Source: a virus
Taxonomy: Duplodnaviria; Caudoviricetes
Length of the DNA stretch: 64,000 nucleotides
Virus record (IMG/VR): IMGVR_UViG_3300044728_000163
Coordinates: 1 to 64,000 of that record
Reading direction: 5' to 3' (one strand)
Below, piece after piece: positions 238 through 49,200 of the stretch. How positions within the stretch are numbered: position 1 is the first letter of the stretch; each line of letters starts with the position of its first letter. The notes below the pieces were generated by a model, which did not search any database, was not told the DNA's origin, and worked only from the letters and a program-made list of their open reading frames with translations. The position numbers and the translations under genes are program-made.

Positions 238-318
238 GAGGCCGGCACCAGGTTGTGAGGCCTCGACCCGCCACACCAGAGGCCAGCACCAGGTTGTGAG
301 GCCTCGACCCGCCACACC
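238..318. repeat. 40-bp direct repeat, two copies (238-277, 279-318), one mismatch
   Basis: GAGGCC(G/A)GCACCAGGTTGTGAGGCCTCGACCCGCCACACC read twice in tandem. Confidence 0.95.
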
Positions 319-450
319 CTCGACCCGCTGGCATGGCCTCCCCTGGCCTCCCCGCTGGCCGCTGGCATGGTGTCGACCCGCTGGCCTCCCCTCGACCCTC
401 GACCCGCTGGCATGGCCTCCCCGCTGGCCGCTGGCCTCGACCCGCTGGAC
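300..450. repeat. Modular low-complexity repeat cluster (CCTCGACCCG / CCGCTGG / CCTCCCC / CATGG modules)
   Basis: Short modules reshuffled many times; the same modules recur at 2357-2856. Confidence 0.9.
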
Positions 451-579
451 TCAACCTATTGAGGGGACTCCGTTAATTCGCACTGGCCTCGCGATTAATG
501 CCGACTCAATGCTTGCAATGTGACCCTGACAGGTTCACAAGGCACCCGCACCGCATGCCGCGGCCGCAGGGGACACCCG

Positions 580-2189: not shown

Positions 2190-2215
2190 CACCCTCGACC
2201 CTCGACCCGCGCGAC

Positions 2216-2347
2216 CCTCGACCCGCCTTGTGCGGGTCGAGGCGCGTACTGATCTAAACTCGACCCGCCTAGTGCGGGTCGAGGCGCGTACCGCACTCGA
2301 CAAGCTGGCCTCGACCCTCCCCGCTTTACGCGGGTCGAGGCGCGTAC
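2216..2347. repeat. Three tandem hairpin units (C)CTCGACCCGC-N5-GCGGGTCGAGG, each followed by CGCGTAC
   Basis: Perfect 11-bp and 10-bp inverted repeats at 2216-2242 and 2259-2283; interrupted third copy at 2309-2340. Confidence 0.9.
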
Positions 2348-2356
2348 TGTGACTCA

Positions 2357-2856
2357 TGGCAAGGCCTGGCCGCTGGCCTCCCCGCTGGCCTCGACCCTAC
2401 GCCAGGCCTTGCCATGGTTCACACCCGACACCCGACACCCGACTCGCCTGGCATGGCCTCGCATGGCCGCGCCTCGCATGGCCGCGCCTGGTGCCTCCCC
2501 TCCCCTCCCCGCTGGCCGCTGGCCTCGACCCGCTGGCATGATGTCGACCCGCTGGCCTCCCCTCGACCCGCTGGCCTCGACCCTCCCCGCTGGCCTCCCC
2601 GCTGGCCGCTGGCCTCGACAAGCTGGCCTCGACCCGACTCCGGCTTAAGCTGGCCTCGACAAGCTGGCCTCGACCCGCTGGCCGCTGGCCTCCCCTCGAC
2701 CCTCCCCGCTGGCCGCTGGCCTCGACCCGCTGGCCGCTGGTGTCGACCCTCGACCCGCTGGCCTGGCCTCGACCCGCTGGCCTGGCCTGGCCTCGCATGG
2801 CCTCCCCTCCCCTCGACCCTCGACCCTCCCCGCTGGCCTCCCCGCTGGCCTCGACT
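2357..2856. repeat. Large modular repeat cluster (CCTCGACCCG, CCGCTGG, CCTCCCC, CTCGCATGG)
   Basis: Same module set as 300-450; ORFs across it are low-complexity artefacts. Confidence 0.9.
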
Positions 2857-2898
2857 CCGCGGCCAGGTAGCAGAATCGATTCCTTTTCGCGCATGCCA

Positions 2899-11948: not shown

Positions 11949-13565
11949 TTATTTCCCTTTCGATACCAGTTGGATGCGCTCACCAATCCACCTGACGACC
12001 GGCGCGGCGAATGAATTCCCCAATGCTTTGTATTTCGCCCCATCAGATGCCGGTTTGCCACGAAACTGAATATCCAGATAGTCGTCGGGAAACCCCTGTA
12101 AACGGCAACACTCGGTTGGCGTCAGCCGCCGCACGGCGGCTCCGGCCTCTACCATCGGCGTGCCACGCCCGGTGCCGTCTTCGCTACCATCGAAGCCCTC
12201 GCCGGTCAGCGCGTGGGTCACGACCGTCCCCTCCATGGCACCGGTCCCCGCCGACGCGTCACGCAGCGGGCTGGCCGTGTCGGCCCAGTTCCACCAGCCC
12301 TGGCCGGTGTTGTTGTACGTCACCACCACGTCGCCGCCCTGCGCGCCGCTGACCGGTCCCGATCCCATCAGCGGTTGCGATACCTCCACGGCGCGGGCCT
12401 TGTAATCGGTGTTCTGGCGCTGCGGCATGATCGAATAGAGTTGCTGGGCGACGAAGGTATCCTGGCTGTCGCGACCAGACCCGAACACGCCGCCCTCGTC
12501 CTGCTTGCCAGCCGAGACAGCGTAGGCCGGGTCGGGAAACCCTTGGGTGATGAACGTCTCGGTTTCGAAGTCCATCCTGCCACCGGGATGGGCGTTGCAC
12601 GCGGTGGCCACGTCGAGGGGGCCGGACTGCCGATTGCCGCCAAACGCCACACCGCCACTCAGATTCCGAGCGCGGAAATTGGTGCCTTCGTGGCTCCAGG
12701 TTTTCCACTCGGTGGTGCTGACCGGGTCCGCGACGGTCTGGATGTAGGTTTCCTGGTCGAGGTCGCCGCGCCAACCACCTTTGCCGGGAGTTCCTCCAAT
12801 GGGTCGGGAAACAGCGACAACGGGGTCTTGGCCTCTGGTTTCACCACCGCGGGAGTAACCCCGGCCACTCGCTCCAAGGCTCTGTGCAACGGGGTGGGTA
12901 ATGCCTTGCCCCGCTTCGCCGCGCGCCGGAGGATTCCCAAGCATGCTCGCGCGCTCAAGTAATACCGGCTCCCGATCGGCCCAGTTTCCAAAATCGCAGA
13001 CAAAGAAGATACGCTTGCGCCGTTGCGCCAGTCCCCGCCATTGCGCGTCCAGCACGCTCCACTCGACCATCCCAGTTGGTCCGACAGCACAACCGGTGCT
13101 TCGCCAGCCATCTCGCGGAACGTCAAATCTGGTCCCAACCAGACCGCCAACCACGCCAGCAAAGTCGCGTCCCGCGTGGGAACTGAACAGGCCTGGGACG
13201 TTTTCGATGACGACCCAGCGGCATCCGCAATGCTGCCTGGCCCGCTGAACAAATCGCATTGCATCCCAGAAAAGACCGGACCTGGTGGCGCTTCCATCGG
13301 CATGCTTAAACCCCCTCCTTTTCCCCGCTATACTCACGTCCTGGCAGGGAAAACCACCCACGACGACATCGACGCGACCCAGCGCCCGAATAACATCTTC
13401 GTCAATATATCTAACATCGCCCAAATTGGGCGCGGTGCGGTGCCGTACCTTCAAGACCTCACAAGGGAATGGCTCCACCTCTGCCGTGGCGACGCACGTC
13501 CAACCCAGCGGCTCCCACGCCAGCGACGCCGCCTCGATGCCGCTGAACAAGCTGACGAACCGCAT
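11949..13565 (-). CDS. dcm: DNA (cytosine-5) methyltransferase with long variable region
   Basis: FSGIEA (I), GGFPCQD (IV), ENVPG (VI), QRRKRIF (VIII), RRLTP.EC.RLQGFPD (IX), YKALGNS (X). Confidence 0.95.
   Translation of the reverse strand: MRFVSLFSGIEAASLAWEPLGWTCVATAEVEPFPCEVLKVRHRTAPNLGDVRYIDEDVIRALGRVDVVVGGFPCQDVSIAGKRRGFKHADGSATRSGLFWDAMRFVQRARQHCGCRWVVIENVPGLFSSHAGRDFAGVVGGLVGTRFDVPRDGWRSTGCAVGPTGMVEWSVLDAQWRGLAQRRKRIFFVCDFGNWADREPVLLERASMLGNPPARGEAGQGITHPVAQSLGASGRGYSRGGETRGQDPVVAVSRPIGGTPGKGGWRGDLDQETYIQTVADPVSTTEWKTWSHEGTNFRARNLSGGVAFGGNRQSGPLDVATACNAHPGGRMDFETETFITQGFPDPAYAVSAGKQDEGGVFGSGRDSQDTFVAQQLYSIMPQRQNTDYKARAVEVSQPLMGSGPVSGAQGGDVVVTYNNTGQGWWNWADTASPLRDASAGTGAMEGTVVTHALTGEGFDGSEDGTGRGTPMVEAGAAVRRLTPTECCRLQGFPDDYLDIQFRGKPASDGAKYKALGNSFAAPVVRWIGERIQLVSKGK
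12659..13264 (-). CDS. Nested alternative-frame ORF inside dcm, M.EcoHK31I beta-subunit-like
   Basis: Open same-strand shifted frame; SSLSAILETG..YYLSARACLGILRRAAKRGK motif; start uncertain (13264 or 13303). Confidence 0.55.
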   Translation of the reverse strand: MQCDLFSGPGSIADAAGSSSKTSQACSVPTRDATLLAWLAVWLGPDLTFREMAGEAPVVLSDQLGWSSGACWTRNGGDWRNGASVSSLSAILETGPIGSRYYLSARACLGILRRAAKRGKALPTPLHRALERVAGVTPAVVKPEAKTPLSLFPDPLEELPAKVVGAATSTRKPTSRPSRTRSAPPSGKPGATKAPISALGI

Positions 13566-13978
13566 CAGGCGTGCCCCACGTCTTCATGGATCTGGATCGG
13601 TCGTATCTCGCCTTCGAACATCGAGATGATCTTATCGCGCATCCGGATCACCATGAGGTCACGATCCTCCACCGCGCAGTCATCGCAGACCAGGAACATG
13701 ACCGCGCCGGTCGCCGCCCGCGGCGCGTGCAGCGCGCCGAGCGTCGCGCAATGCGACAGCCGCACCGAGCGGGCACAGAACAGGCATCCGACCGCGCCCC
13801 GCGTCATGTCGCGCTCGACCGCCTGGATGAACAACTCCAGCGAGAACCGCGCGTGCGCGTCGCCATCGCGCGTCCGCGTCACCAGCCGCGGCACATCCTC
13901 CAGCCAGATAAACGAACTCACCATCAGCCCCTCGCCTTCGCTGACGATGCGGTTGATCTGTTCCTGTATCGCGTTCAC
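13565..13978 (-). CDS. Hypothetical Zn-binding protein
   Basis: GTGA coupling at 13975-13978; CLFC and CDDC. Confidence 0.65.
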   Translation of the reverse strand: MNAIQEQINRIVSEGEGLMVSSFIWLEDVPRLVTRTRDGDAHARFSLELFIQAVERDMTRGAVGCLFCARSVRLSHCATLGALHAPRAATGAVMFLVCDDCAVEDRDLMVIRMRDKIISMFEGEIRPIQIHEDVGHA

Positions 13979-14268
13979 CGCCCGAGCCACGCCGAACGAA
14001 GCTGATCGAAGGCGCTCAAATGAACCCAAAGATTGAACAACGGCCCCGGCTTGCCACCATACGCGCGCAACGCATCGACCATGGCCGTCCTCCTGTTTTC
14101 CTCTGGCCCAAGATCACCCGACTGAATGACGAACGGCGGCATCACCGTCCCAGCCCTTTCGTGATGCGCCAGCAAATCATGTAACAGTCCATGCGAACTG
14201 GCCATGACCATGTCCATCGCCCGCGTCAGCGCCGGAAGCCGGACGCTCATATCGCGATCATCGCTCAT
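13975..14268 (-). CDS. Hypothetical protein
   Basis: In operon with short overlaps. Confidence 0.65.
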   Translation of the reverse strand: MSDDRDMSVRLPALTRAMDMVMASSHGLLHDLLAHHERAGTVMPPFVIQSGDLGPEENRRTAMVDALRAYGGKPGPLFNLWVHLSAFDQLRSAWLGR

Positions 14269-14470
14269 CTTTCCCCGCTTCCATCCTGCCCAGCAAATCG
14301 AATACTTCCAGCCTCATTTTCGCACCGCAACGAGGGATCAAAAACCACCGGCCCGAGCGCAGCCCCGCCAGATCGTTGATCCCATCGTTGACCAGGAGCC
14401 GCGCCGCGCGCGTGGACAAGCCGAGACTTCTCCAGTGATACACCAGCCTCTCGCGCTCCTCGCCGGTCAT
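14258..14470 (-). CDS. RNA polymerase alpha-CTD-like (HhH) protein
   Basis: LGLSTRAARLLVNDGINDL..L...FLIPRCGAKMRLEV matches the alpha-CTD pattern LS.R..N.L...I..L..L....L....N.G.KS..EI. Confidence 0.6.
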   Translation of the reverse strand: MTGEERERLVYHWRSLGLSTRAARLLVNDGINDLAGLRSGRWFLIPRCGAKMRLEVFDLLGRMEAGKDER

Positions 14471-14802
14471 GTTTCCGGTTCCTCTTTCACCGCCCTCCAC
14501 AACACGCGATTCGAACCGTCCTGAAAGCGTCGCAGCTTTGTATCGACGATCAAACCCATCTCGGTCAGTTCCGATCGCCGGGTGCGATGAGTGCTTTTGT
14601 GATCATTGAAATACGACTGAAGGTCCAGGTCGGTGATCGCTTGTGGCCAGATCGAACGGAAATAATCCAGCACTTCAATCTGGATATCCGTCATCCGATG
14701 TTGGATGCGCTCCGCGGCGATATGCGATGTGTCGGGATCGCCAGGCCGCGCGCGGGTATGCGGTTCGAACAGACTTATCTGGTTTGAGTTTTTCCGTGCC
14801 AT
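14467..14802 (-). CDS. Winged-HTH protein with N-terminal QISLF beta-clamp motif
   Basis: AR..DP.TSH.AA motif, then EVLDYF..ITDLDL..RTRRSEL.EMGLI wHTH. Confidence 0.7.
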   Translation of the reverse strand: MARKNSNQISLFEPHTRARPGDPDTSHIAAERIQHRMTDIQIEVLDYFRSIWPQAITDLDLQSYFNDHKSTHRTRRSELTEMGLIVDTKLRRFQDGSNRVLWRAVKEEPET

Positions 14803-14821
14803 GACGGTTACCAGTCGCCGG

Positions 14822-15337
14822 TCATGGCGTCGTTTCCTGTTCCTTCCCGATCCCCAGACGGCTCGCCATCATGGTCAGCGTCGTGGCGACCGGCGTCGGC
14901 TTATCTGGCGAAACGATCTGCGCCACATGCCGGTCGCGCGCCAGGTAGCCGATCAACTGCAGCGCGCTCGCCTCCGCGTAGGCCCGCGCCTGGCCGTTCG
15001 CGGTCATGTCGTTGGCCACCTCCACCGCCCGTACAATCGACCCCGCCGCGCGCCGGGTGCTACGGCGGATGCGGCGGCGCAGATTGACCCCCACCAGCGC
15101 GGCCCGCTCCGCTTCCAACCTCTGATAGCCAACCGTCCGCACGTTCACGAACAGGCTTCCGCCTTCCTTGTTCGCCAGGTCGATCGCTCGCAACACCAGA
15201 TACCGACGCGCCTGGACATCGGCCCCGATCGCGGCGGAAAGCTGCGAATACGTCACGATCTCGCCAACGCTGGTCGCCATCAGCCGGTCGCGTAGATGCT
15301 GGATATCCGCGGCCAGAATACTCTGTGGTTTGAACAT
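14822..15337 (-). CDS. Winged-HTH-like accessory protein downstream of the array
   Basis: AGGAG RBS right after the last array unit; VGEIVTYSQLSAAIG..RAI..VRTVGYQRL. Confidence 0.7.
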   Translation of the reverse strand: MFKPQSILAADIQHLRDRLMATSVGEIVTYSQLSAAIGADVQARRYLVLRAIDLANKEGGSLFVNVRTVGYQRLEAERAALVGVNLRRRIRRSTRRAAGSIVRAVEVANDMTANGQARAYAEASALQLIGYLARDRHVAQIVSPDKPTPVATTLTMMASRLGIGKEQETTP

Positions 15338-15360
15338 GGATTATCTCCTGGGTTGAAGAC

Positions 15361-16911
15361 GATGCGATGCGATGAGCAGTGCAGCGCAGAGATGCTGGGC
15401 GGCGCGACGCGGTGCGAGGCGCTGCGGCGCGGCGTTGGGCCTCTCGACCCGGCATCCAGTCCGCAAACTGGATGCCGCGTGGAGAGGCAATGCGATGCGA
15501 TGCGGGGCGCGGTGGCGCGATGTGGAGCGGTGCGTCGCGGCGCGGAGCGCTGTGAAGCGCGGAGCGGCGTCGCGGGGTTGAGTCTCTCGACCCGGCATCC
15601 AGCAAAACGCTGGATGCCATGTCGAAAGAACGATGCGAGGCGACGCGGGAAAGTGCGCTGTGGCGAGACGCGGTGCGGCGCGCGGCGCAGTGTCGCGCAG
15701 GGTGTCGGGCCTCTCGACCCGGTATCCGGCCTGATCCGGATGCCATGTCGAGAGCGATGCGATGCGGGGCGCAGCGTGGCGTAGCCGAGCGCAATGACGC
15801 GGAGCGAAGCGGGGTGAAGCCATGAGAAGCGGTGAGCAGCGATGTGTGGCGTGGCGCGGTGTTGCGACGAGGAGCGCCGTTCGGTTTGAGTCTCTCGACC
15901 CGGCATCCGGCCCACGAGTCTGGATGCCGCGTGGAGAGCGATGCGAGGCGATGCGAGGCGCGGAGTGGTGTTGCGTAGTAGTGCGTAGCGCGGTGCTGCG
16001 CGGCGTGGTGCTGCGCCGAGGCGCGCGGCGTGGGACCACCTGGGCCTCTCGACCCGGTATCCAGCCGATCTGGATGCCGCGTCGAGAGCGTCGCGTCGCG
16101 ACGCGTTGAGTTGCAAGGCGGTGCGTTGCGCCGCGAGGCGGGGCGATGGGCTGCGGAGCGGCGCGTGGCCTGGTGGTGCGGCGTGTGGCGTGGCGCTGTG
16201 CAGAGCGGCGAAGCGGCGCGACGAAGGGGCCTCTCGACCCGCCCTTGGGACCGATCCCAAAGCCATGTCGAGAGACGGTGAGGCGATGCGAGGCGATGCG
16301 GCGCGGGGCAGAGCGCAGAGTGGCGAGGAGTTGCGTGAAGCGGCGGCGCGGCGCGCTGCGTTGAGTGAAGGCCTCTCGACCCGGCATCCAACATGACCTG
16401 GATGCCGCGTCGAAAGACGCGTTGCGCGGCGAGGAGTAGCGGCTCGTCGTGAGGCGTAGCGTGGAGCGGCGTTGCGTCGAGTCGAGGCGTGAGGCGCTGC
16501 GGCGCGCGGTGTCGCGACGAGGAGCGTCGTTGGGCCTCTCGACCCGGCATCCAGCCGCGAAGGCCGGATGCCGCGTCGAAAGACGCGTTGCGTTGAATAG
16601 CGACGAGTCGCGGGGCGAGGCCGAGCGATGAGTTGAGATGCCTTGAGGCGGTTGGCCTTGAGTCTCTCGACCCGGCATCCAGACCAAATCTGGATACCGC
16701 GTGGAGAGAACGATGCGATGCGATGCGATGAGATGCGCGGAGGTGCGTTGCGCCGCGATGCGCCGCGTCGCGCGGCGAGGTGTAGCGTCGATGGACCTCG
16801 CGATCCGACCTTCAGACCAACCGGTCTGAAAGCCGCATGGCGAGGCGAGGCGTCGAAAAGCGATGAAGCGCGAGGCGTCGCGGCGCGGTGAGAAGTGTTG
16901 CGGCGCGGTGG
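15361..16911 (-). repeat. Hairpin-punctuated pentamer array, putative guide-RNA (ncRNA) array
   Basis: Hairpins CTCTCGAC-CC-GGCATCCAG-loop-CTGGATGCC-GC/AT-GTCGAGAG at 15441-15486, 15584-15628, 15711-15754, 15892-15938, 16046-16088, 16231-16274, 16373-16416, 16536-16582, 16664-16708 and a divergent one at 16796-16845; intervening tracts parse as G-NN-G-(C/A/T) pentamers on + (GC-NN-C on the sense strand). Confidence 0.95.
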
Positions 16912-16916
16912 AAACA

Positions 16917-17510
16917 TTAAGCTGCGATCTGGCGATTATCTTGCCATACCAGCTTATCGATTTGGAAACGACCGTTCGTTCCACCCTTCTCGGGCCGGAA
17001 CCGACCGATGCCAACGAACAGGCCACTCAGGTTGACCATCTCGCGGAAAATCGTTTCGGTAATAATAGGATCTAGGATAATCACATCGAAGGTTGATTGC
17101 CATTCCGGCATGATCGGAAACCTACGCGTCACCCGCTTGCCAGAGCCGCGCACCCCATCGGGGTTGGCGCTGATGGTCACGCTCGTCACCGTCGCTGGAT
17201 CGATGTTGAGCGCGGGGTCTTCCAGAACCGCGATACCCGCCGTAAACTTAGCTGTCCATGTCGCCTTGCCCTGGCCGGGGATTTGTCGCTTGGAATATTT
17301 GGCACCAGAAGCGAAGCACTGTTGCAGACCATGCGCCGGAATCACCACGGTCGGTTTCCCATCGCGAATGGTGTGATTCATCTTGTGTTTCCAAGTCCTT
17401 AAGTCCCAATCGTCGGGCCTTTCTCCTTCTAGTTTAGGCTCATCATGCTGACGGCTCTGCGACAAGGGCGTGATGCCCTTGATCGTGACGGTGGCGATGC
17501 TGGCTTGCAT
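16917..17510 (-). CDS. Cas7/RAMP-superfamily-like RNA-binding protein, putative effector of the array
   Basis: N-terminal strand TVTIKGITPL, VVIPAHGLQQCF (cf. Csm3/Cas7 IPGSSLKG), and Gly-rich loop GLFVGIGRFRPEKGGTNGRF before the last strand; array begins 6 nt after the stop. Confidence 0.75.
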   Translation of the reverse strand: MQASIATVTIKGITPLSQSRQHDEPKLEGERPDDWDLRTWKHKMNHTIRDGKPTVVIPAHGLQQCFASGAKYSKRQIPGQGKATWTAKFTAGIAVLEDPALNIDPATVTSVTISANPDGVRGSGKRVTRRFPIMPEWQSTFDVIILDPIITETIFREMVNLSGLFVGIGRFRPEKGGTNGRFQIDKLVWQDNRQIAA

Positions 17511-17530
17511 GGTAAAAGTCCTTTTTTAAC

Positions 17531-17590
17531 GTGGCGTCGAGACGCGATGAGAGGCGTTGAGTCGAGATGCTATGCGACGCGCGGCGACGC
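17531..17590 (-). promoter_or_regulatory. Twelve-unit pentamer tract in the 5' leader of the RAMP-like gene
   Basis: gtggc gtcga gacgc gatga gaggc gttga gtcga gatgc tatgc gacgc gcggc gacgc; same G-NN-G-C code, ends 20 nt before the ATG. Confidence 0.8.
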
Positions 17591-17785
17591 GCGATCGTCT
17601 CCAGCCTCGCGACTGGCGTCCAGCCGCAAGACTCCATCCAGAATGTCGCAGATGATCCAACTGACTGACCGGCGCTCCATCTCGGCGCGCCGATTGAGCA
17701 CGCCGTACAGGTCGTCGGTCAGCCGAACGTGAACTGACTTACCCTTGGCCCCGCCCGAACCAGGCGCGACAGGTCTTCCAGCCAT
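17570..17785 (-). CDS. Ribbon-helix-helix (Arc/CopG-like) repressor
   Basis: KSVHVRLTDDLYGVLNRRAEMERRSVSWIICDIL; GGAG RBS. Confidence 0.8.
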   Translation of the reverse strand: MAGRPVAPGSGGAKGKSVHVRLTDDLYGVLNRRAEMERRSVSWIICDILDGVLRLDASREAGDDRASPRVA

Positions 17786-17850
17786 CACTCACTCCAACCC
17801 TGAACAGACCAAACGGACTATCATGGGAACATGAGGATAGCAATGGGTAA

Positions 17851-18183
17851 TTATTTCAATATTCCGTTGTCGATGCCCCACCCACGCATGATGTCCAGGC
17901 CACGCTGGCGCTTCTCTTTCTCGGTGTGGCCATCGTTGTAGAAATTCACCCCCGTGAGGATGTCGGCCACCCACTCCTTGCCGTCCGCGCGCATCACCGG
18001 ACCCACTTCGCGATCACCTCCCTGGCGCTCCCAGATCGGCTCGTAGAACCGGTTGAACAGCACCTCGCGACCGGTCTTCGTCGTCCACATGCCGTAAGCG
18101 ATGTCATTCTGACGTTCGAAGTCACGCGCGGTGGCGAAGTGACGAGGCTTCCCGCCGTGGGTGAACCGTTCCTTGAAACTCAT
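17851..18183 (-). CDS. Hypothetical protein
   Basis: GGAGG RBS; aromatic-rich globular sequence. Confidence 0.75.
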   Translation of the reverse strand: MSFKERFTHGGKPRHFATARDFERQNDIAYGMWTTKTGREVLFNRFYEPIWERQGGDREVGPVMRADGKEWVADILTGVNFYNDGHTEKEKRQRGLDIMRGWGIDNGILK

Positions 18184-18214
18184 GTCCCTACCTCCCTAAC
18201 GTGCCTCTACCATC

Positions 18215-18425
18215 CGCCCCTACCTATTGTGAAGAAAATGGCTGATTTCCGCCATTTGCCTCCACGTCACCACCTCCCCACCGGTTTTCCAAAACCCTCT
18301 CCTGTGCGTGCGTATACACACATGCGTGCAGGTGCCTATAGGTAGGGGCGTGGGGGCATGTTGGTTTATTACCTAGAGAAAGCTGGTTGGGGAAGTGCCA
18401 CCACGGTGGGGGCATAGTGGGGGCG
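18215..18425. other. Candidate replication origin
   Basis: 13-bp inverted repeat CGCCCCTACCTAT (18215-18227) / ATAGGTAGGGGCG (18338-18350); three GTGGGGGC repeats; non-coding, just downstream of the VapE helicase. Confidence 0.35.
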
Positions 18426-18447
18426 AAACACCCAAAGGTAGAGGCAA

Positions 18448-19887
18448 TCAGGTGCCAGGAGCCTCGTCAGGCGGTTGCCAGGTCGTGGTCTTCCCGCGCG
18501 ACAGTTCATTTTTGACTGTTGGCAATCTAACGTGGCGAGACGCGATCCATCCCATCGCCTTCAGAACCTCGGCCACCCTCATCTCATGCACCTTAGACAT
18601 TTTATCTTTTGTCATGCCGATCGCGTGTTCCAAGATCCTGGCGACGTAGATTGGTTCGACGGCGAGGAACGCGTCGGTCGGTTCCGCCTGATCGGCGATG
18701 ATCCGCGCCTTCGCTTCCGAGCGCTCCCGTTCGGTTTTGGCGACCCATCGTTGGACGGCCACGGTCCAGATGTCCTCGCGCATGCGCGTGTTGGTCAGCC
18801 GCGCCGCCTCGGCCTGCAGTTCGTCGGTGTCCAGCCATAGCCGCCGGTCGTCCCCTTCCGCCTCGCGCGCCGCCGCTTCCGCCCATAATTGTTCTCTGTT
18901 AGCAATGATCCATTGAACATCCGCCTTCTGACAGAAGGCCGGCCAGAACCGTGTATTCCCAGTTGTATCCTTCAAATAATCTTGTTGATTTGTCGTTCCA
19001 AAGAACACTCCCTCGCGTGGCACGTCGCGGAAATGGCGCTCATACGGTGGCCGGAAATGATCGGTGTTCCTTGACAAAAACGCCTTGAGTGTTTCCACAT
19101 CGGAACGGATGACCTGCTCGATCTCGCTGAACTCGACCACCCATTTGCCGAAAAGTCCTTGCGCCGCCTCCTTGTTTCGCAAATCCGCGAACACCGTGTC
19201 GGTGAAGAACTCCTTGCCGTACAGCACCTCGATCACCGTGCTTTTGCCGAGCCTTTGCTCGCCTTCCAATATCAACATCGAATCGAATTTGACCCCTGGA
19301 CGGCGCAGCCGCCGCACCGAAGCGACCAGCATCCGCGCGCCGATCGCGGCGTAGTAATCCTCGCGTGCCTTCCAGCGAGCGTATTCCGCCTCGTCACCAT
19401 TGCGGTCGAACTCGTTGCGGACATCGAAGGCCTCGACCATCCAGGTGTCGATCCGATAGACACCATCCCATCGTAACGAATTAATCCAGTCCAGTATTGG
19501 ATGATATGAATTCTGCCGCGCCACGACCTCCATGGCGTCGGCCACGTTGGCGCGTGGCCAGTTCTTGTTCCAGGCGCACTGCAGGTACCCGGTGACCAGG
19601 GTGATGTCGGTGGTGTTCCACGGCCTGGGGTATGGCCCCCGCTCGTCCACCTCCGAGCCGTCGAACCGGGGTGGTGGCCGCAGCAACACCGCCTGACAAC
19701 GGTAACTGTCGAAGGCGAACATCGGACCCAGCGTGCCCGTGAACGGATCATCGTTAGCCAGGATCATCATCGCGTTATGTAAAGTAACAAAGACATCACC
19801 GTCTTTGGGCCGCGCCAGGCGGAACCGCCAGCCTGGGTCCGGTGATTCGAAAGCGTCTGGCGCGTCGGGCGGATCATTTGGCATCAT
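18448..19887 (-). CDS. vapE: VapE / virulence-associated E family P-loop helicase
   Basis: YHPILDWINSLRWDG..RID, LILEGEQRLGKST, WVVEFSE, FFGTTNQQDYLKDTTGNTRFWP. Confidence 0.9.
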   Translation of the reverse strand: MMPNDPPDAPDAFESPDPGWRFRLARPKDGDVFVTLHNAMMILANDDPFTGTLGPMFAFDSYRCQAVLLRPPPRFDGSEVDERGPYPRPWNTTDITLVTGYLQCAWNKNWPRANVADAMEVVARQNSYHPILDWINSLRWDGVYRIDTWMVEAFDVRNEFDRNGDEAEYARWKAREDYYAAIGARMLVASVRRLRRPGVKFDSMLILEGEQRLGKSTVIEVLYGKEFFTDTVFADLRNKEAAQGLFGKWVVEFSEIEQVIRSDVETLKAFLSRNTDHFRPPYERHFRDVPREGVFFGTTNQQDYLKDTTGNTRFWPAFCQKADVQWIIANREQLWAEAAAREAEGDDRRLWLDTDELQAEAARLTNTRMREDIWTVAVQRWVAKTERERSEAKARIIADQAEPTDAFLAVEPIYVARILEHAIGMTKDKMSKVHEMRVAEVLKAMGWIASRHVRLPTVKNELSRGKTTTWQPPDEAPGT

Positions 19888-40261: not shown

Positions 40262-43200
40262 TCAGTGCATCCTCTGTTCAAGTTGTTCCATGCGCGCCAT
40301 GAGCGCGACATTCTGTTCCGTCAACTGCTGAATGGCGCGTGCCATTGTCGCGATCAGCGGCAGTTCCCTGATTTGCGCGTAGCCTTCGCCCTCGTTGTTT
40401 TTGACGACGGCGAGCGGAATGACCTCCTCCACCTCGTCGGCGATCAGCGCGCAATCCCAGTGCTGGCTGACGGCGTTGGGGACCGGCGGCAGAAGATCGA
40501 GTTCATGAAACGTCAGTCTGTTGATCTGGCCAAGCGCGTCGATGGTGGCGGGCCGGATGTTGCTTTTCAGGCGGCGGTCGGACCAGACGATTGACCAGCC
40601 CGCGAAGCCATCACCCGGCCACCAGATGCCACAGGTTCCGTTACCGTTGAGCATCAACTGATGACAACCGGTCCACCCGCCCCCGGTGTCATACGACCTG
40701 AGAAGCCGTCCCTGGTAACCTCCGTCCAATCTGAAGGCAACACTATAACCATCCCATGGAAGGGCGACGGCCTGTCCGTTCCATGCCGAATAGACGATGC
40801 CGTTGTTATTGCACCAGACGATGCTGAACGTGGGACCGGCACCGTAATCGCAGTTCTGGTTTGGGCCGTTGGGGTCGCGCGTGTCGCGCAGTTCGACGTA
40901 GGCCGCGCCGCCATCAATCCAGCACTGTACACGACCGTTCCAACCCATCGCGAGCCATGAGTTGGACCACCACCGATATTTGTGACCGTATTGTCCATCG
41001 TTGTAGACGTTCTTGGTGACGTTATCCCCAATGAAATTGGTCCCAGCGAAAGTAGGACCGGCACCATTATCGACGTTCTGGTTGGGCGTGTAAGCGCCGA
41101 TGTTCTTGAAGTTGGCGGAAGTCCATTGCCGTGCCGCGATGCCATGCTGGTAGACACCGTCAACGTAAAGATTGATGAGGCCGTTCGTCCCGTCCCAGCC
41201 GAAGCCGATTTGATTGACGGCGTAGCTGCGATAGACGACGCCGCTCGTGACCGAAGCCGTGCCAACCACATGAATATTTCCACCAAGTAGAACGCCGGTC
41301 GGCCCGTTCTCCGGTTGGATGTAAAGCCAGTTAGTGTCTGTGTTGCCGATGTAGCCTGTGCGCGCCCCAGCGTTGTTGAACAGCGCGACGTAGCCGGAAT
41401 TGTTCACGCCAGCGGGTTGCAGCGCGATGTATCCGCCAGATGCGGTTCTGGCCTGGACAAAGTAAGCGAAGACCGCGTGGTTAAACGAGGCGTCCCCGGT
41501 GGCACGATTGAGGACAAATGGCGCGTCGAGATAAGTGCCCGCGTCGTTGTAGCGATGGATCAGGAAGTTATCACCCGCCTGACCGTCACCCAGTTGCATG
41601 TTCCAGTGTAGCAGACCGCCTCTGTTCCCGATGATCTGCGAGGGCTGACCCGCTACCGGGACCAGCCAAAGGGTCGATGCGTTACCGGCGGCGGCGGTGA
41701 TCGTTATCGCGTTCGTCACCCCCAGCGCGCCGGTCATGCTGTCGCCTGTCTTGGCGACGTAATTTCCTCCTGAGATAGCAACGAATTTGTTATCTGTGTA
41801 CTGCTTTGTCGCCGCTTCATAAGCAGATGTTGGATCGCGTCCTAACGTGACGGTGAGCGTGCTTGAAAGCGTGATACCGTTGCCATTGAAACTCGCGACC
41901 AACCCACCCGCCGTTGGATAGAAATTGGTGGCCCCACCAGCGACGATGTTGAGGGTGCCGCCCGTGACGCTGAATCCGTAGTTGGGTTCCCAAAGCTGGA
42001 TGTGCTGCGAGAGGTCGAGCGGGTTGTTGCCGATGGCGGTGCGCTGGCCGAACGTGAGGCCCGCGTTGGGGACCGCGAGGACGCCGTTGACCTGTAGCCG
42101 GTTGCTGAAGACCGCGTCGCCGTTTGTTCCGATCCAGAAGCGTGCGGCGGGAGCATTCTCGTCCGAGATGACGTAGAGGCCGTCGCTTCGCGTGCCCGCG
42201 CTCCAGGTGCGAGCGTTGGTGACGGTTGACCAATAACGCGCGGACTGACCGGCTGGCACGGTCATCTGGATTGTGTCGCTGCTGGGGCCTCCCTGCATCA
42301 ACATCCGCCCCGTCTCGCGGTTGAAGCGGAGGATGGCCCCCGGCGTGCCGGTATCGGTCCAGCGCGTGAGGATCAGGTCGGAGCCGACGTTGCTGCCCGT
42401 CTCGTTGGAATACTCGGCCTGGATATTCCAGCGCGGCGATCCCGACGACCACCACTGGATGGTTCGCCATGAGGCCGGTGGTCCATCCAGATTGAACTGC
42501 GGATTAGTGCCTCTGACCGTGGGCTGATTTAGGAACGTGGACACGCCGTTGAACGTGGCGTTGCCGTAGATGGTCGCGCTGCCGCCGGGATCGACCTGAA
42601 AGATCGGGTTGTTGCCTTCAACGAACCGCCAGAAGCCATCATTGCGGCGCTCGAAATAGTAGGCCGGGTTGTTGGCCATGATGAACTGGCCACTGTTGGA
42701 GACTACCGCGTTGCCACCGATGTTACCCGATGCCCAACTGTAGCCACTGACACTCAGACCGGCCATCGTGAACCGCGCGATCTGGGATTGCCTCGCGTCG
42801 GTGTTGTCGTCGTTCACCTGATTGGTGATCCAGACATCGAGGAACTCGCTGCCCCAGCCAATCCCGGCGAAGCCGGAACGGATGGAGGCAACGTAGCGCG
42901 CCCCCTGGTCAGCGTTACCGACGAAGTTGCCACCAAAGCGAATTCGGCTTTGCCCGCCGTCCATGTTGGGCGTTGAGAGCCACAGTTGCGCGCTCGTATT
43001 GTTCGATGCGTGATTGATTCTTAATGGTCCGGACATCACATCGCCGGTTCTCGCGACGTAACCGCCGCCCACGATGGGCGCGTAATTGTTGACCACCCAC
43101 TGCCTGGTCACCGCGTCCATGTTCGCCGTGGGGTCGCGGCTCAGAGTGATCTGGCGGAATGAGCCGATACCCTCCCGCGTATCGAACCAGATGCCAGCCT

Positions 43201-46200
43201 GTCCACCAGGGACGGAGCCAGCCCCGACGCTGTTGTAAAAGCCGACGCCCCACCATGATTCGATCTTGATGTTGTTGTTGATGGGACCGACGCCATCAGG
43301 CCCCTGCCTGATGTAGTTGTTGTTCCCGTTGCTGACGAACTGAATGGCTTGCGTCATCGTCAGCGGCACGGTCAGGTAGCCATCGACCGTGCCAAGCATC
43401 CGATACCATTTGGCGTCGGTCCAGCCACCGTCTTGTTGTGAACGATACCAGATCGCGGGACCGCCGCCGCGGTCGCGGCCACCCATCATCAGTTGGTTGC
43501 GCCAACCCTGGTTGCTGTTCCAACCCTCCAGCACGAGCGCGCACTGGTCATACTGGTCATAAGGCCAGTTCAACCCACCGCTCTGATTGGTGATCTGGCG
43601 CAGCCCCATGAACGAATTCGATGGGGTGTTCATGTCGAACGCGACATTCCCATACCCAATGACGGCGGGCACCCAGTCCCAGACGCCAAGGCGACGACCG
43701 TAAGCCAGTTCATTGTTCGGCGCGTCGGTGGTAATCGGCGTGCGCCCATCGACATACCGCCGGGTCGCCGCTTCCATCGGCTGGGAGGGATCTTTGTTGA
43801 GGGTTACCGAACTGCCGAATGTCGTCGCGCCATCAATCGACACGAGGCCGGGATAGCGAACATATATCACTGAAGTCCCGGCTCGATCCGCGAAGGCGAG
43901 ATCGGAATTAACGCCGGGATGTCCCCTGAACAATCCGCCCCAGTTGGGATCGGTGTAGATGGACCCCGGCCTGAAATCACCACCCTGCGTGGACCACGCG
44001 ATGCCGCCGTTGTGCAGCGTCATGCCGTAGAAATAAATTCCGGTGGCGGCATGGATGGCGACATTGTGCTGCGCGCCGTCAATGCGAATACCAAGATTGG
44101 ATTCACTCCATGGCATGAGCGTGATGACGCCAGAGTTTGGGACACCCGTGCTAACGACGAACGAGACATCCCCGGCGACGACGATGCCGTTGTATGCTCC
44201 GGTCGCGTAATGGTTGGGCCAAATGTCTAAATATACCCCGCCAGAACTCACCTTTATCGCTGGAGAGAAATTCGTTTGCCCATTGAAATTCGTTGCTCCA
44301 TTAACCGTTCCGCCGGTCAACGCGAGGTAGTTTCCACTGACCCATCCCCGCGACGCGAGGTAACCCAGATCGTTCCCATCTACGAACAGTTTTAGCGCGC
44401 TGTCGGCTGTCCAGGTGAAAGCGATGGCGTTGCCGCCGCCCGCGACACCGTTGAAGGTGACTCCGAGTCCAAAGAGCCGCAGGATGGCGTCAGAGCGAAG
44501 AGTCGCCAACGTCTTCCATGTCCCGGTGCCGGTGACTTGCATGAAGTCGAAGCCAGCGGGTGCCCACGAACAACCGTTGACGAAAGAAACCTCCCCCCAC
44601 CCACCGGACGAGTTCCAAAGCAGCCAGCCGCCACCGGAAGGAGGGATGGGATCGCCGTTGTGGCGATTGGTAAAGACGAAGTCACCGTTGGCCGCGAGTT
44701 GACCGCGAACGTCGAGGTTCTGCTGAATGGTCAACGATCCGGTCATCGTATCGCCATCGGCATTCACGAAGCGAGCATCGGCCTGCGCGGTCGTCAGGTA
44801 GTTCGTCTCGATCCACCGCTTGTTCACCGCGCTGGTCGGTTGCCATGGGTCTTGCGCCAAATAGACGTGGCCGTTGAAACTCACATCGCCGCCGCGCCCT
44901 TCCGCGCGCGTGATAAACAACGCCTGACCAACGTAGTGGCCGTCGTTGCCGTAGGCGTGCATCTCGAAAGCAGACCCGGTTGTGCCGGTAGTGTCGGTTC
45001 CCTCGCTACTACCAAGGGCCAGACGCAACAGCCACCGCGCTCTCCCGCTGTTATATCCCCATATACTTGTCTCACCTCCGTTATTATTTAGGATCAGTCC
45101 CGCGTTACCCCCAGGAACACCGTCGATCTGGATGTAGCTGCTGACGTTCAATGGCAGATAAGAATAAAGTTTGTCGCCGCCCCACACGCGGAGCAACAAG
45201 TTCCCACCAGCGTAGAAATCGTATTTATTGCTGGCGTCGAAAACATTGAAATTGAGTGTGCTGCCGGTCACGAGGATGCTGTAATTCTGCCCGGTTGGCG
45301 TGCCATAGAAGGTGATGCCACGCGAAGCATCCTGCGGGTTCCCAACGACCCCGTTGCCAAAGTTTATCCCTTGGTTGATCCACAGCGTGTTAACCGCCGA
45401 GACGCCGTTCCCACCACCGTCCAGATACACGCCGCCGCCTGGAGCGTACAACACCACCTGACCGGCGGTGTGTTGCATCACCAACCGCGTCGGCATGGTC
45501 CAGGCGAGTTGAACCTGAACATTGAACGCGACCGATCCGGCGATAGCCGTCAGACCGATGGGGTTGGCGCTCCCCGGCCCGTTGATGGTCATACGCTGGT
45601 GATCCATGCGGAGGTCGGTGACACCCCCACCGGACACCGCCAGCGCCGTGTAGGCATTGCCGTAGTCGTCCCTGAACCGGTCGCCGACGTTGACGCTGCC
45701 GCCAGGATTGGTGATGGAGACAAGCGACGGGTAACGCGAAAGGGAATTGATCTCGATGGTTTGATCGTTGTTGTAGCGCGCGATCCCTAGCGCCTGGACC
45801 TGCACCCTGGCCCCGTTGCGTCCCTCCCTGACCGAGAGGCCGGTCATCTCGATGTAGCCGTCGCGCGTGCTGAACGCGATGCCATACATGCCAAATGGCA
45901 TCATCTGGCCTGGGCAAGTGGTCGTCAGGCCGATGCCATGCCACGAACCCAAGGCGAAATTGACGCCCAGATTGTCAGCGCGGTCCAGGCCCGTGCTGCC
46001 GATGAACATGCTGCCATTGAAGAAATTGACCCTGGTGGTCCCGGTCATCAAAATATCGCCGGTCATATTGCCGCCGGTCAGCTTCAAATATCCCGACATC
46101 TGATCGTCAACGTACTTCTTGTTGACCGCTTGCATGTCCAAAGTCGGAGGCCGGGACAGGTAGATGTCGTAGCCGTTATACATGCCGATGCCACCGGCAT

Positions 46201-49200
46201 TGATCAGCATCACGTCCGCGCCGCCCACCAGGAACACATGGGAGGTGTTGACGTTGGTCGTGTAGTTCAGCCGCGCGTCGGTGATCGAGAACCCCATACC
46301 GGGCTGCCACAGCGTGATGTGACGCGAGGTATCGGTGGGGTTGCCGCTGGGCACCGACTGAGAACCAAAGCTGATGCCGCCCTGCATCGTGCCGCCGGTC
46401 AGCTTTAGGAACGCTTTGTTATCGACGTAGTCCTTGCTCGCCGCCTGGGTGCCCGTGGTGGGAATGCCATCCAGATAGAGATGGCCTTGCATCGTTCCGC
46501 CAGCGATTTTCAGATCGTTGGCGTCGAACCACTGCAATGTGTCCTGCACATTGTAGGTGCCCTGCACCGGTGGATCGACCGCCACCGCCGACGCGGTGAA
46601 GTAGACCAGGCCGAGCGGCAGGAAGATCCAGTCCTCGCCGTCGCTGATAAACCAATCGCCGCGCACGTATTGCGAGGTGCCCGCTGGCATCGGCGGAATG
46701 TGTGTTCCAGAAGCTGGTGGAATGCCCGCCTCGACCACGATGAAGTAACTTCCCTTGACCAGCAAGGTCGGGTCGGGCAGCGGCCCGTTGGGAAGGTTCA
46801 GCATGGTTTTGTAGAACACTTCGTCGCGCGTGCCAGCCGGGTTCAGGTGCAACTGGCCAAAGAACACCAGGTTGCCAGCGGCGACCGCCGATATCTGGTC
46901 CTGCAAGACCTGATCGGCGTTCCGCACATAGAACAACGGCGTCGCGTGTTCATCGACCGTGGGCGTCGTGTGCGGCAGGTACAGCATGCCGGTCAGCGCC
47001 ATCCCAGATCCCGCCGTCAGCGGCAGGAACGGCCCGCCAGCGCGGTCCAGCACCCCATCGGCGTACTTCCTCGTCGCCGCTTCCATGTCGGTCGTCGGCT
47101 CGCGTCCCAGCGTGACGGTGTAGAAGCCGTCGAAGGTCAGGCCGGTGGCGTCGAACCGGGCGATGTCATTGCCGCCGCTGTTGAAATACGTCCAAACGGG
47201 GCTGACGATGTTCAGGCGGTTGTTGGTGACCGAGAGGCCGTAGCTGCCACCGAAAAGGTCGAGGTGCCGCGACAGATCGGTGGGTCTACCAGACGGCGTT
47301 GTGTCGCCGCCGAACGACAGGCCCACATACATCGATATCACCGTGCTGGAGAGCGCGACGGTGGTGATGCTGTCGTTGATGAAATACGAGGCCCCGGCGA
47401 CGATGTTCATCCCACGGTAGGAGACGTTGATGCCGTGGTTCGGGTAGAGCGATATATGCTTCGTCAGGTCGGTGTTGTTGTTCCCGGTGATCGCGCTACC
47501 GAAACTGATCCCGCCGTTCATCAGCAGACCAGCGGGCTGGAACGTGCCGATCAGTCCGGTCCCCTGAATCAAAAACTGATGCACGCCATCGAGGCCGGCG
47601 ACGTAGTTGAAGTGCGCCGGGTTAACCCCGTTCCACTGGACGTTGAAGCCGTAAGTGTGCTGCCCGCCGCCATCGTAAAGCAGGATGTGCTTCGACAGGT
47701 CGTAGTCGCCAGCTACCTGAAACTCGCCCAGGCTGATGCCCAGGTTCTTCATGTGCAGCCCGGTCGCATTGATCCGCGCTGTCTCGACCGTGCCCGCGAT
47801 GAAGACGTTGTTCCCCGGCGCGTCGGTGACGTGAGACAGCATCCCGGTATTGGTGACCGAGATGCCGTAGCCCGCGTAGTGGAACCTGATGTGCTTCGAC
47901 AAATCCCATGCATCGGTGACGGTCGCGCCGCCGAAATCGATACCGATGTTCTGCACGAACAACCCGGCCTGAGTGTAGAACCCGCCGGTTTTACGATTGA
48001 CGCTGAACGATGAGCCAAGATAGTGCCCGTCGTCGGCGAAACGATGCATCGTCAGACCGGAGCCGATGTCGGTGCCGTCCTCGGCTGGATAGTTGTCCAG
48101 GGATAGCTGGAAGCGCGCGACGCTCGCGGCTTGCCACTGGAACCCGGTGCCATACTGAGACTGCTTCGCGCCGTTGACCGCGACCATGCCGCCGGTCCCG
48201 GCTGACGTGCCGACGTTGATGCCGCCATCAACGCTCATCCAGTTCTTGACCGTGACGCGTCCATCCCACGCGCTGATCGCGAACGACTGCCCCAGGTAAG
48301 TCCCGTCAGCCGGGTTGTAGCGGTCGATCCAGAACGAGCCGCTGTTGCGAAGCTGCATGATCGCGCTGACGCCGTTCGGCATCCGCTGCCACCAGATGAA
48401 GCCACGGCTTTCCGACGTGTCGGAGAGGTTGTTGAAGAAATCGAAATCGACCATGCCGCCGTAAGACAGGCCCAGGCTGGCGCTGAAATTGGCCGGTGGC
48501 GGATTGCCCGCGTTGTTGGAATACCACGTCAGCGGAATGCCGGTTCCGTTCGACCCAGGCCACGCGATCTCCAGGCCCCCGGTCATCGTGTCGCCGGTTA
48601 CATTCACGAAACGAGCGTCGGCCTGTGTGGCCGTCAGGTAGTTGGTTTCGATCCATCCGCGGTTGACGGCATGCTTTGGATAGACCGGATCGCGCCTCAG
48701 TTCCAGGTCGCCAGCGTTGTTGAGACTCAGCGTGACCACGCCGTTCATATCAACGAAGTGCGTATCCCAGTTCGATACGATGTTGAGCGTGCCGCCCGTG
48801 ACGCTGAATCCGGCGAAGCCGTTGTAGAGGTTGATGTGGCGCGAGGTGTCCTGGGCCAGGGCGACCGTGTCGTTGCCCAAATTAAGGCCACCCGTATAGA
48901 GCCGCAGATGCCCGGTCTGGTCGAGGGTCATCCCGTAGTTGCCGCCGCGAACGTCAGGCCCCCACTCGGCGCGGCCAGAGCCGTACACGCGGGAGACGCA
49001 GTAGCCGCCCAGGCCGTTGTTCGCCGTCAGTTCCCACAGGCTGCTACGGTCGCCAGCGGACCAGTCGTTCAGCGTCAGCAGACGGAACTCGCCACCGCCA
49101 TGGTAGGCCGTGCCGTCGTAGCCGATGCCGTCCAGGTCAACGAGGACATCATCCGCCGTCAGCGCGCGTGGAGCCGCGCGCGGGCCTTCCGCCGAACGAC

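What the first reader, a model, noticed from the sequence alone, without database searches (positions are those of the whole stretch)
15441..16845. Array delimiters are structure-conserved hairpins with compensatory changes (likely processing signals)
Seen: each delimiter is an 8-bp outer stem (CTCTCGAC/GTCGAGAG), a 2x2 internal loop and an 8-11-bp inner stem with a variable 4-8-nt loop. Pairing survives sequence change: GGCATCCAGT/ACTGGATGCC versus GGCATCCAGC/GCTGGATGCC; copy 16231-16274 swaps the inner stem to TTGGGA/TCCCAA; copy 16796-16845 uses TTCAGACC/GGTCTGAA and CCTCGC/GCGAGG. Each hairpin is followed on the sense strand by GCCCA/ACTCA-like linkers, and many tracts end in stereotyped GCATC or GCAAC units. 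Inference: stems of about 18-20 bp with an internal loop fit RNase III-type substrates, so a host nuclease could cut the transcript into single guides without Cas6.
Basis: partly seen in the sequence, partly recalled or inferred. Interest (0 to 1): 0.8.

Follow-up and report, generated by a model that had tools for sequence, protein, structure and literature searches.

The report
Hairpin tails of phage VIPR guides
The ten hairpins are real and keep their pairing through sequence change, but they are the structured 3' ends of guide RNAs in a VIPR system, a CRISPR-like phage system first described in 2026, so this is a new example of a known kind, and which enzyme cuts the guides apart is still unknown.

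Summary
Ten imperfect hairpins of 17-22 bp lie at 15441-16845. They fold far better than shuffles, and 8 of 22 stem positions show compensatory changes.

They sit in a VIPR locus (Viral Interference Programmable Repeat; bioRxiv 10.64898/2026.04.26.720920). The 197-aa gene at 16917-17510 is a Vipr-type RAMP. It is followed on the minus strand by ten tracts of 13-27 NN-CGC pentamers, each kept in one register and each ending in a hairpin. An eleventh, tail-less tract runs into the ribosome-binding site of a conserved accessory gene at 14822-15337.

The hairpins match the published "structured 3' tail" of vrRNAs. Here the tail is a long hairpin with one conserved mismatch, not the SUSP1 pseudoknot.

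G·U bias, a relative's array (L073) and two guide-target matches under the published 1-nt-skip rule all point to a minus-strand RNA with the hairpin 3' of its guide.

The RNase III idea is untested. No promoter, terminator or ribozyme lies inside the array, so cutting is needed. However, related loci separate their tracts without long hairpins, and the published tail stays on the mature RNA.

This scan has noted VIPR on other DNA before (113 notes in at least 101 genomes). Verdict: new member of a known kind, modest interest.

The parts
16917..17510 (-). vipr gene, 197 aa, minimal RAMP (Cas7-like)
   Evidence: Profile of 29 homologues hits PDB 36pp_D 'SUSP1 Vipr protein', E=1.5e-5. AF2 model has pLDDT 89. 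Foldseek top hits are Cas7/Csm3 subunits of type VII and type III complexes, E about 1e-6. G-rich loop GIGRFRPEKGGTNGRF.
17511..17595 (-). Upstream tail-less pentamer tract that runs into the vipr ribosome-binding site and overlaps the end of a 72-aa RHH-like ORF (17570-17788)
   Evidence: Unit parse; ORFs; Arc-like PHROG hit.
15338..16916 (-). vrRNA array: eleven NN-CGC pentamer tracts and ten hairpin tails between vipr and vap
   Evidence: Period-5 signal. Tracts of 71-142 nt, 13-27 units, each in a single register; unit positions are C 85%, G 67%, C 92%, with two free positions.
16796..16845 (-). Tail 1 (divergent copy: CCUCGC/GCGAGG outer stem, UUCAGACC/GGUCUGAA inner stem)
   Evidence: -37.9 kcal/mol, z=-6.0.
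16664..16708 (-). Tail 2
   Evidence: -32.9 kcal/mol, z=-6.1.
16536..16582 (-). Tail 3
   Evidence: -44.6 kcal/mol, z=-7.2.
16373..16416 (-). Tail 4; the 14 units just 5' of it match a viral-contig gene
   Evidence: -37.1 kcal/mol, z=-7.1; target match.
16231..16274 (-). Tail 5 (inner stem swapped to UUUGGGA/UCCCAAG)
   Evidence: -32.8 kcal/mol on the minus strand against -21.8 on the plus strand.
16046..16088 (-). Tail 6
   Evidence: -30.7 kcal/mol, z=-4.4.
15892..15938 (-). Tail 7
   Evidence: -27.3 kcal/mol, z=-2.7.
15711..15754 (-). Tail 8
   Evidence: -28.1 kcal/mol, z=-3.9.
15584..15628 (-). Tail 9
   Evidence: -35.2 kcal/mol, z=-7.5.
15441..15486 (-). Tail 10
   Evidence: -40.0 kcal/mol, z=-7.4.
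16846..16916 (-). Tract 1 (13 units): its NN string matches vipr genes under the 1-nt-skip rule
   Evidence: 21/26 on the window's own vipr and 22/26 on L073 and L041, in codon phase at WTAKFTAGI; shuffled guides reach 18-19.
15338..15440 (-). Tract 11: tail-less, with normal GCCCA start and AUCGC AUCGC end, running into the AGGAG of the next gene
14822..15337 (-). Accessory gene (vap-like), 171 aa
   Evidence: A homologue lies downstream of vipr on the same strand, after a 99-952-nt gap, in 48 of 60 related loci; in one more (L055) it lies upstream. No Pfam family.

Best explanation
The hairpins are the structured 3' tails (handles) of ten vrRNAs in a VIPR array. The minus strand is transcribed together with vipr and the accessory gene. 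Each unit is a short linker, then 13-27 NN-CGC pentamers, then a hairpin of about 45-50 nt. Vipr protomers are expected to coat the pentamer tract, one per unit, holding the fixed CGC and exposing NN to read DNA with one skipped base. The hairpin marks and caps the 3' end of each guide. It most likely blocks 3' exonucleases and sets the filament end, and it is the landmark next to which the precursor is cut. Shown here: the hairpins, their covariation, the strand bias, the Vipr homology, the strict register and two guide-target matches. Inferred from the SUSP1 work: filament assembly, capping and DNA silencing. Unknown: the cutting enzyme and the exact ends.
For: The protein is Vipr-like. Homologues in 60 loci are flanked by the same pentamer tracts, and 49 loci also carry the vap homologue. 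The pentamers keep one register over 13-27 units. The unit C-NN-C-G fits the published alternative YNNNG. Hairpin covariation is shown. Non-Watson-Crick cells are G-U on the minus strand 22 times and A-C only 3 times. Summed folding energy is -346.6 kcal/mol on the minus strand and -301.4 on the plus strand. A relative's array (L073, Vipr 75% identical) has seven tails of different sequence but the same design: a 9-bp base, one mismatch and a variable 10-bp top. These are 92.5% paired with 4 compensatory pairs, and mean energy is -26.4 kcal/mol on the sense strand against -14.9 on the antisense strand. Polarity: tract 1, which has a hairpin only on its 3' side, matches vipr genes over its whole length. 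Tract 4 matches a viral-contig gene with the 14 units next to its 3' hairpin, 24/28 against a shuffle maximum of 19. Three other 20-base patterns gave no hit in the same collection. In L039 a TTGACA..TATAAG site directly precedes the leader tract.
Against: There is no RNA evidence for this locus. The covariation comes largely from two divergent copies and the top of the stem, and copies within one array are related by duplication, so cells are not independent. Three of ten hairpins fold slightly better on the plus strand, and some relatives (the L049 group) fold better antisense. The fixed trinucleotide is CGC, not the studied GGY, and the tail is a plain hairpin, not a pseudoknot, so function is carried over from a distant relative (E=1.5e-5). 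The tract 4 match covers only its 3' 14 of 23 units. The tract 1 match to the window's own vipr (81%) is almost as good as its match to rivals.
Confidence: 0.82

Rival explanations
1. One reading: host RNase III cuts within the 17-22-bp stems, near the internal mismatch, and so releases single guides.
For: The helices span about two turns with one internal mismatch. No ribozyme, promoter or terminator lies inside the array. This array lacks the AU-rich single-stranded spacers seen in relatives. From textbook knowledge: T7 early mRNA is cut by RNase III at hairpins with internal loops, which leaves a protective 3' hairpin on the upstream product.
Against: Untested here. In SUSP1 the structured tail is kept on the mature RNA, so a double-strand cut through the stem would remove what appears to be needed. 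Relatives with short tails or none (L021, L058, L052, L069) and SUSP1 itself manage without long dsRNA. Continuous helices are at most 13 bp because of the conserved mismatch, and four copies also carry a C-C mismatch in the outer stem.
Confidence: 0.22
2. The hairpin is a 5' handle of the tract that follows it, or the plus strand is the RNA, so that units read hairpin-then-tract.
For: There are n hairpins and n+1 tracts, so the count alone does not set polarity. Three hairpins fold a little better on the plus strand.
Against: Tract 1 has no hairpin before it, yet it matches vipr genes over its whole length. The tract 4 match abuts its 3' hairpin and not the 5' one. G-U bias is 22 to 3 for the minus strand. 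In L073 the sense strand folds much better than the antisense. The published order is tract then tail. On the plus strand the unit GCG-NN does not fit x-G-Y.
Confidence: 0.06
3. Vipr itself, or the accessory protein, binds the hairpin and cuts at its base, as Cas6 (also a RAMP) does at CRISPR repeat hairpins.
For: Vipr is a RAMP. A GGAUG(C/G)C word recurs on the 3' arm in tails of 12 loci from several sequence families, in 26 of 190 windows against a 4% background, which hints at sequence-specific protein contact.
Against: The preprints describe no nuclease activity for Vipr. The motif enrichment is weak, and its partly palindromic nature inflates it: the antisense of the same windows gives 19 of 190.
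Confidence: 0.08
4. The palindromes act as DNA, as protein-binding sites or recombination points, and not as RNA structure.
For: The word CTCGACCC of the outer stem is concentrated in two other non-coding regions of the phage, 250-460 and 2190-2960, with 24 of its 42 plus-strand copies in the window's first and third kilobases. Simple CTCGACCCGC hairpins occur there.
Against: The strand-asymmetric G-U bias and compensatory changes that alter the sequence completely fit a folded single strand, not a fixed DNA site. The position is always immediately 3' of a tract.
Confidence: 0.03

Closest known systems
Type II VIPR system of Escherichia phage SUSP1 (Vipr, Vap1, four vrRNAs; bioRxiv 10.64898/2026.04.26.720920 and 10.64898/2026.04.26.720927; PDB 36pp)
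   Same: Phage-borne minimal RAMP. Pentamer tracts with three fixed and two free bases on both sides of the gene. A structured conserved 3' tail after each tract. A downstream accessory gene. A 1-nt-skip match of NN to codon positions 1-2 of targets, including vipr genes of rivals.
   Different: Fixed trinucleotide C-(G/U/A)-C instead of GGY. Tail is a 17-22-bp hairpin with one mismatch instead of a pseudoknot of about 40 nt. Ten tailed guides plus two tail-less tracts fused to ribosome-binding sites. Tracts of up to 27 units against 9-16. Protein similarity detectable only by profile (E=1.5e-5).
Non-canonical VIPR arrays (NNNGG, YNNNG, NNNNG; GAC/NN, CAC/NN, WGT/NN) and hammerhead-interspersed or staggered arrays (same preprint; bioRxiv 10.64898/2026.10.21.760802)
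   Same: Shows that the fixed trinucleotide and the punctuation between guides vary among VIPR clades. The relative L068 uses CAC/NN.
   Different: CGC/NN with hairpin punctuation is not named in the text I could read. No hammerhead or any other Rfam family is found here.
Cas6-processed CRISPR repeats of type I-E/I-F
   Same: A hairpin sits at the 3' end of each mature guide and stays bound in the complex, and a single precursor is cut into units.
   Different: No Cas6 or other cas genes next to the array. The 'spacers' are pentamer tracts of unequal length. The hairpins are about three times longer.
RNase III sites of phage T7 early mRNA (e.g. R1.1), recalled from textbook knowledge and not tested
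   Same: Phage polycistronic RNA punctuated by hairpins with an internal loop. Cleavage leaves a stabilising 3' hairpin on the upstream product.
   Different: No cleavage data here. The internal loop here is a single mismatch.

Membership tests
VIPR system | Vipr protein: minimal RAMP with RRM core, G-rich loop and thumb | tested here: met
   hmmsearch hit to SUSP1 Vipr, E=1.5e-5. Model with pLDDT 89 matches Cas7/Csm3. G-rich loop.
VIPR system | Tandem pentamers with fixed trinucleotide and hypervariable dinucleotide flanking vipr | tested here: met
   NN-CGC in one register per tract, with fixed positions at 85/67/92% and near-uniform free positions. The same is seen in nearly all of the 60 related loci.
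VIPR system | Canonical GGY fixed motif | tested here: not met
   The motif is C-(G/U/A)-C. It fits the published alternative YNNNG, so this does not exclude membership.
VIPR system | Conserved structured tail 3' of each tract | tested here: met
   Ten hairpins with covariation. The form differs: a hairpin, with no conserved loop that could form a pseudoknot.
VIPR system | Accessory vap gene in the locus | tested here: met
   A homologue of the 171-aa gene is found in 49 of 60 related loci, downstream of vipr in 48. Its DNA-binding fold was not tested.
VIPR system | Noncontiguous 1-nt-skip match of NN strings to targets | tested here: inconclusive
   Two of twelve tracts have matches above controls: tract 1 on vipr genes at 81-85%, and the 3' 14 units of tract 4 at 86%. 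Ten tracts have no target in the DNA I could scan.
VIPR system | vrRNAs expressed and bound by Vipr | not testable with these tools
RNase III substrate | About two turns of dsRNA | tested here: inconclusive
   17-22 pairs, but interrupted by one to three mismatches.
RNase III substrate | Cleavage dependent on rnc | not testable with these tools
   No RNA end data.
Ribozyme-punctuated VIPR array | Hammerhead between guides | tested here: not met
   No Rfam match at E<=1 in 13000-19000 apart from one chance snoRNA hit.

The most novel reading that the evidence does not exclude
In this alphaproteobacterial-phage clade the long mismatched hairpins serve both as the Vipr filament cap and as punctuation read by a host double-strand RNase. 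That would be a further way of cutting VIPR arrays besides ribozymes. In addition, the tail-less tracts fused to the ribosome-binding sites of vipr and vap would let Vipr throttle its own translation.
Probability: 0.15. Interest if true: 0.5.

Novelty: new member of a known kind. Interest (0 to 1): 0.3.

Why it matters
VIPR is a newly described RNA-guided DNA-silencing system, and how its guide arrays are cut into units is not settled in the preprints I read. This locus is a clean, large example: ten guides, a plain hairpin tail and a non-GGY repeat. It comes from an uncharacterised clade, with a relative (L073) that shows the same tail design in a different sequence. That makes it a convenient substrate for asking what the tail does and which nuclease matures the guides. 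It does not reveal a new kind of system.

Tried and rejected
- **Rfam:** a scan of 13000-19000 at E<=1 found nothing relevant.
- **Phage blastn:** the array against 50,697 phage records gave no match.
- **Exact outer-stem pattern in IMG/VR:** 12 loci matched. Nine are chance hits. L010, L013 and L015 looked array-like but were not followed up.
- **Covariance model:** a model built from the ten tails found only those ten and nothing in 60 related loci. Homologous arrays therefore could not be pooled in one model, and L073 was analysed on its own instead.
- **Strand-symmetric hairpin census:** across all loci it was too noisy to set the strand, because many self-complementary CGC tracts were picked up.
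- **Exact 20-base seeds:** 1-nt-skip seeds from tracts 6, 7 and 8 gave no hits in viral contigs.
- **Other guides:** they do not match the loci that hold the tract 4 target.
- **Supplement of the discovery preprint:** it held no locus tables, so the VIPR type (I-VII) could not be assigned.
- **Readings considered and dropped:** a coding region (all three minus frames are open only because the sequence is C-rich and poor in the bases that make stop codons); TRAP-like or Rho-loading RNA; iterons or a centromere. All were dropped once the Vipr homology appeared.

Full report
**What is there.** Window 15338-16916 is a non-coding stretch between two minus-strand genes. It holds nine exact matches to CTCTCGACCCG..GTSGARAG and one divergent copy at 16796-16845. 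There are none elsewhere in the 72,464-base virus record and none for the reversed control pattern. Between the hairpins lie tracts with a strong 5-nt period.

**The hairpins are real.** Each folds into a single hairpin of 17-22 pairs. On the minus strand the energies are -27 to -45 kcal/mol, with z = -2.7 to -7.5 against dinucleotide shuffles. The plus strand also folds, but less well overall: the sums are -301.4 and -346.6 kcal/mol, and the minus strand is better in 7 of 10 copies.

On the alignment of the ten copies, my 22-pair structure gives 90.5% paired cells and 8 pairs with changes on both sides. None of 500 shuffles reaches the observed values, and structures slid by 1-3 columns pair only 29-46%. 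Most compensatory changes come from the two divergent copies (16796-16845 and 16231-16274) and from the top of the stem. The copies are related by duplication, so this counts as solid but not independent evidence.

**What the locus is.** The 197-aa protein upstream (16917-17510) has no Pfam family and hits only an unnamed PHROG.
- A profile of 29 homologues hits PDB 36pp_D, "SUSP1 Vipr protein", at E = 1.5e-5.
- Its AlphaFold model (pLDDT 89) matches Cas7/Csm3 subunits.

VIPR systems were described in 2026 as phage-borne minimal RAMPs. Their guide RNAs (vrRNAs) consist of 9-16 YNNGG pentamers followed by an invariable structured 3' tail, which is a pseudoknot in SUSP1. The NN bases read DNA with one skipped base (bioRxiv 10.64898/2026.04.26.720920). 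Alternative repeats (NNNGG, YNNNG, NNNNG) and alternative array layouts (staggered, hammerhead-interspersed) are mentioned there. GAC/NN and CAC/NN motifs appear in a later preprint.

**How this array fits.**
- Read on the minus strand, each tract is 13-27 units of NN-C-G-C held in one register. The fixed positions are C 85%, G 67% and C 92%, and the two free positions are near-uniform. Written as C-NN-C-G, the unit fits the published YNNNG form.
- Ten tracts end in a hairpin.
- An eleventh tract (15440-15338) and the tract upstream of vipr (17595-17511) have no hairpin and run straight into a ribosome-binding site.
- No promoter-like or terminator-like site lies inside the array, and no ribozyme or other Rfam family.

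**Relatives.** Sixty loci encode homologues of the protein at 45-77% identity: 51 viral contigs and 9 contigs that are mostly alphaproteobacterial.
- Nearly all have the same C-type pentamer tracts directly before and after the gene.
- Forty-nine carry a homologue of the 171-aa downstream gene on the same strand. It lies after a 99-952-nt gap downstream of vipr in 48 of them, and upstream in L055. The window's 1,579-nt gap is the longest.
- A covariance model of the window's tails finds no copy in any relative, so tail sequences are clade-specific.
- Several tail families share one design: a basal helix of 8-11 bp, one mismatch and a variable upper helix.
- The clearest case is L073 (Vipr 75% identical). 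It has seven tails of 44-45 nt with a different sequence, 92.5% paired, with 4 compensatory pairs. Mean energy is -26.4 kcal/mol on the gene-sense strand and -14.9 on the other.
- Other relatives (L021, L058) separate tracts by AU-rich spacers of about 22 nt without a hairpin. L052 and L069 have long tracts with no hairpin.

**Strand and polarity.**
- Within the ten window hairpins, non-Watson-Crick cells are G-U on the minus strand 22 times and A-C (which would be G-U on the plus strand) 3 times. For the 20 core pairs the counts are 12 and 3.
- Under the published 1-nt-skip rule, tract 1 is the only tract without a hairpin before it. It matches the WTAKFTAGI region of vipr genes in codon phase: 21/26 on the window's own gene and 22/26 on L073 and L041, where shuffled guides reach 18-19.
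- A 20-base seed from tract 4 hit two related viral contigs. There the 14 units next to the 3' hairpin match 24/28, in frame with a 224-aa gene next to a small ORF that reads like a helix-turn-helix regulator (my reading of the sequence, not tested), while the 5' nine units do not match.
- Three other 20-base seeds gave no hit at all. This shows that chance hits of this length are rare in that collection.

Together these results place the hairpin 3' of its guide on the minus-strand RNA, as in the published layout. Some relatives (the L049 group) fold better antisense, so the strand argument is strong for this window and for L073 but is not universal.

**Processing.** One precursor with no internal promoters must be cut. 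The preprints I read name no enzyme for hairpin- or pseudoknot-tailed arrays.
- For RNase III: the helix length, the internal mismatch, and the absence of AU-rich single-stranded spacers in this array.
- Against RNase III: the tail is retained on the mature SUSP1 RNA, where it caps the filament. Relatives do without long hairpins. Uninterrupted helices here are at most 13 bp.

I put RNase III at about 0.2. A single nick at the 3' base or at the mismatch, which would leave the hairpin on the upstream guide, is the only version compatible with the tail's presumed role.

**Verdict.** The "guide delimiter" reading is right and already in print as the vrRNA tail. The RNase III step is open. This scan has met VIPR loci many times on other DNA (113 notes in at least 101 genomes), including C-type repeats and hairpin tails. 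This is a new member of a known kind.

Noticed in passing
window 250-460 and 2190-2860 (+ strand): Two non-coding mosaics built from a few short words (CCTCGAC, CCGCTGG, CCTCC, CCTGG, CATGG) joined head to tail. Simple CTCGACCCGC-loop-GCGGGTCGAG hairpins lie at 2200-2350. The word CTCGACCC, which is also the outer-stem arm of the vrRNA tails, has 24 of its 42 plus-strand copies in the window's first and third kilobases and 9 in the array. The flanked genes (668-1762, 1902-2189) have no Pfam family. Function unknown.
   Followed up: partly
window 15338-15440 and 17511-17595 (- strand); same layout in L044, L039, L021, L073: The last tract of every intergenic array has no tail and ends 10-25 nt before the start codon of vipr or vap. 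These genes therefore carry a Vipr-binding-type tract in their leaders, which could allow autoregulation.
   Followed up: partly
window 16846-16916 versus 17220-17258 (vipr codons 85-97): Tract 1 matches the phage's own vipr gene at 21/26 NN bases, just above the 80% cut-off used in the preprint. This is nearly as good as its match to rival vipr genes (22/26). It could be self-regulation or anti-rival targeting.
   Followed up: partly
L082:6230-6904 (-) and L081: Candidate natural target of tract 4: a 224-aa gene just downstream of a small ORF that I read by eye as a Cro/CI-like HTH protein (not tested), in two related IMG/VR contigs. Only the tail-proximal 14 of 23 units match.
   Followed up: partly
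tails of 12 related loci (e.g. L037, L039, L065-L067, L070, L072, L073) and the window: A GGAUG(C/G)(C/G) word recurs on the 3' arm of otherwise different tails. In some families the 5' arm changes (CUUUCCC) but keeps pairing through G-U. This may be a protein contact.
   Followed up: partly
L068:6990-7350: A relative uses CAC-NN units and three near-identical tract-plus-tail repeats of about 95 nt with an AU-rich tail, placed after rather than before the vap-like gene.
   Followed up: no
L010, L013, L015 (IMGVR_UViG_3300045988 contigs): G-rich regions with several hairpins and one copy of the same CTCTCGACCCG..GTGGAGAG outer stem. They could be a related array read on the other strand.
   Followed up: no
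window 40262-58548 (-): Two very long ORFs of 3,657 and 2,438 aa lie back to back in this phage. Not examined.
   Followed up: no
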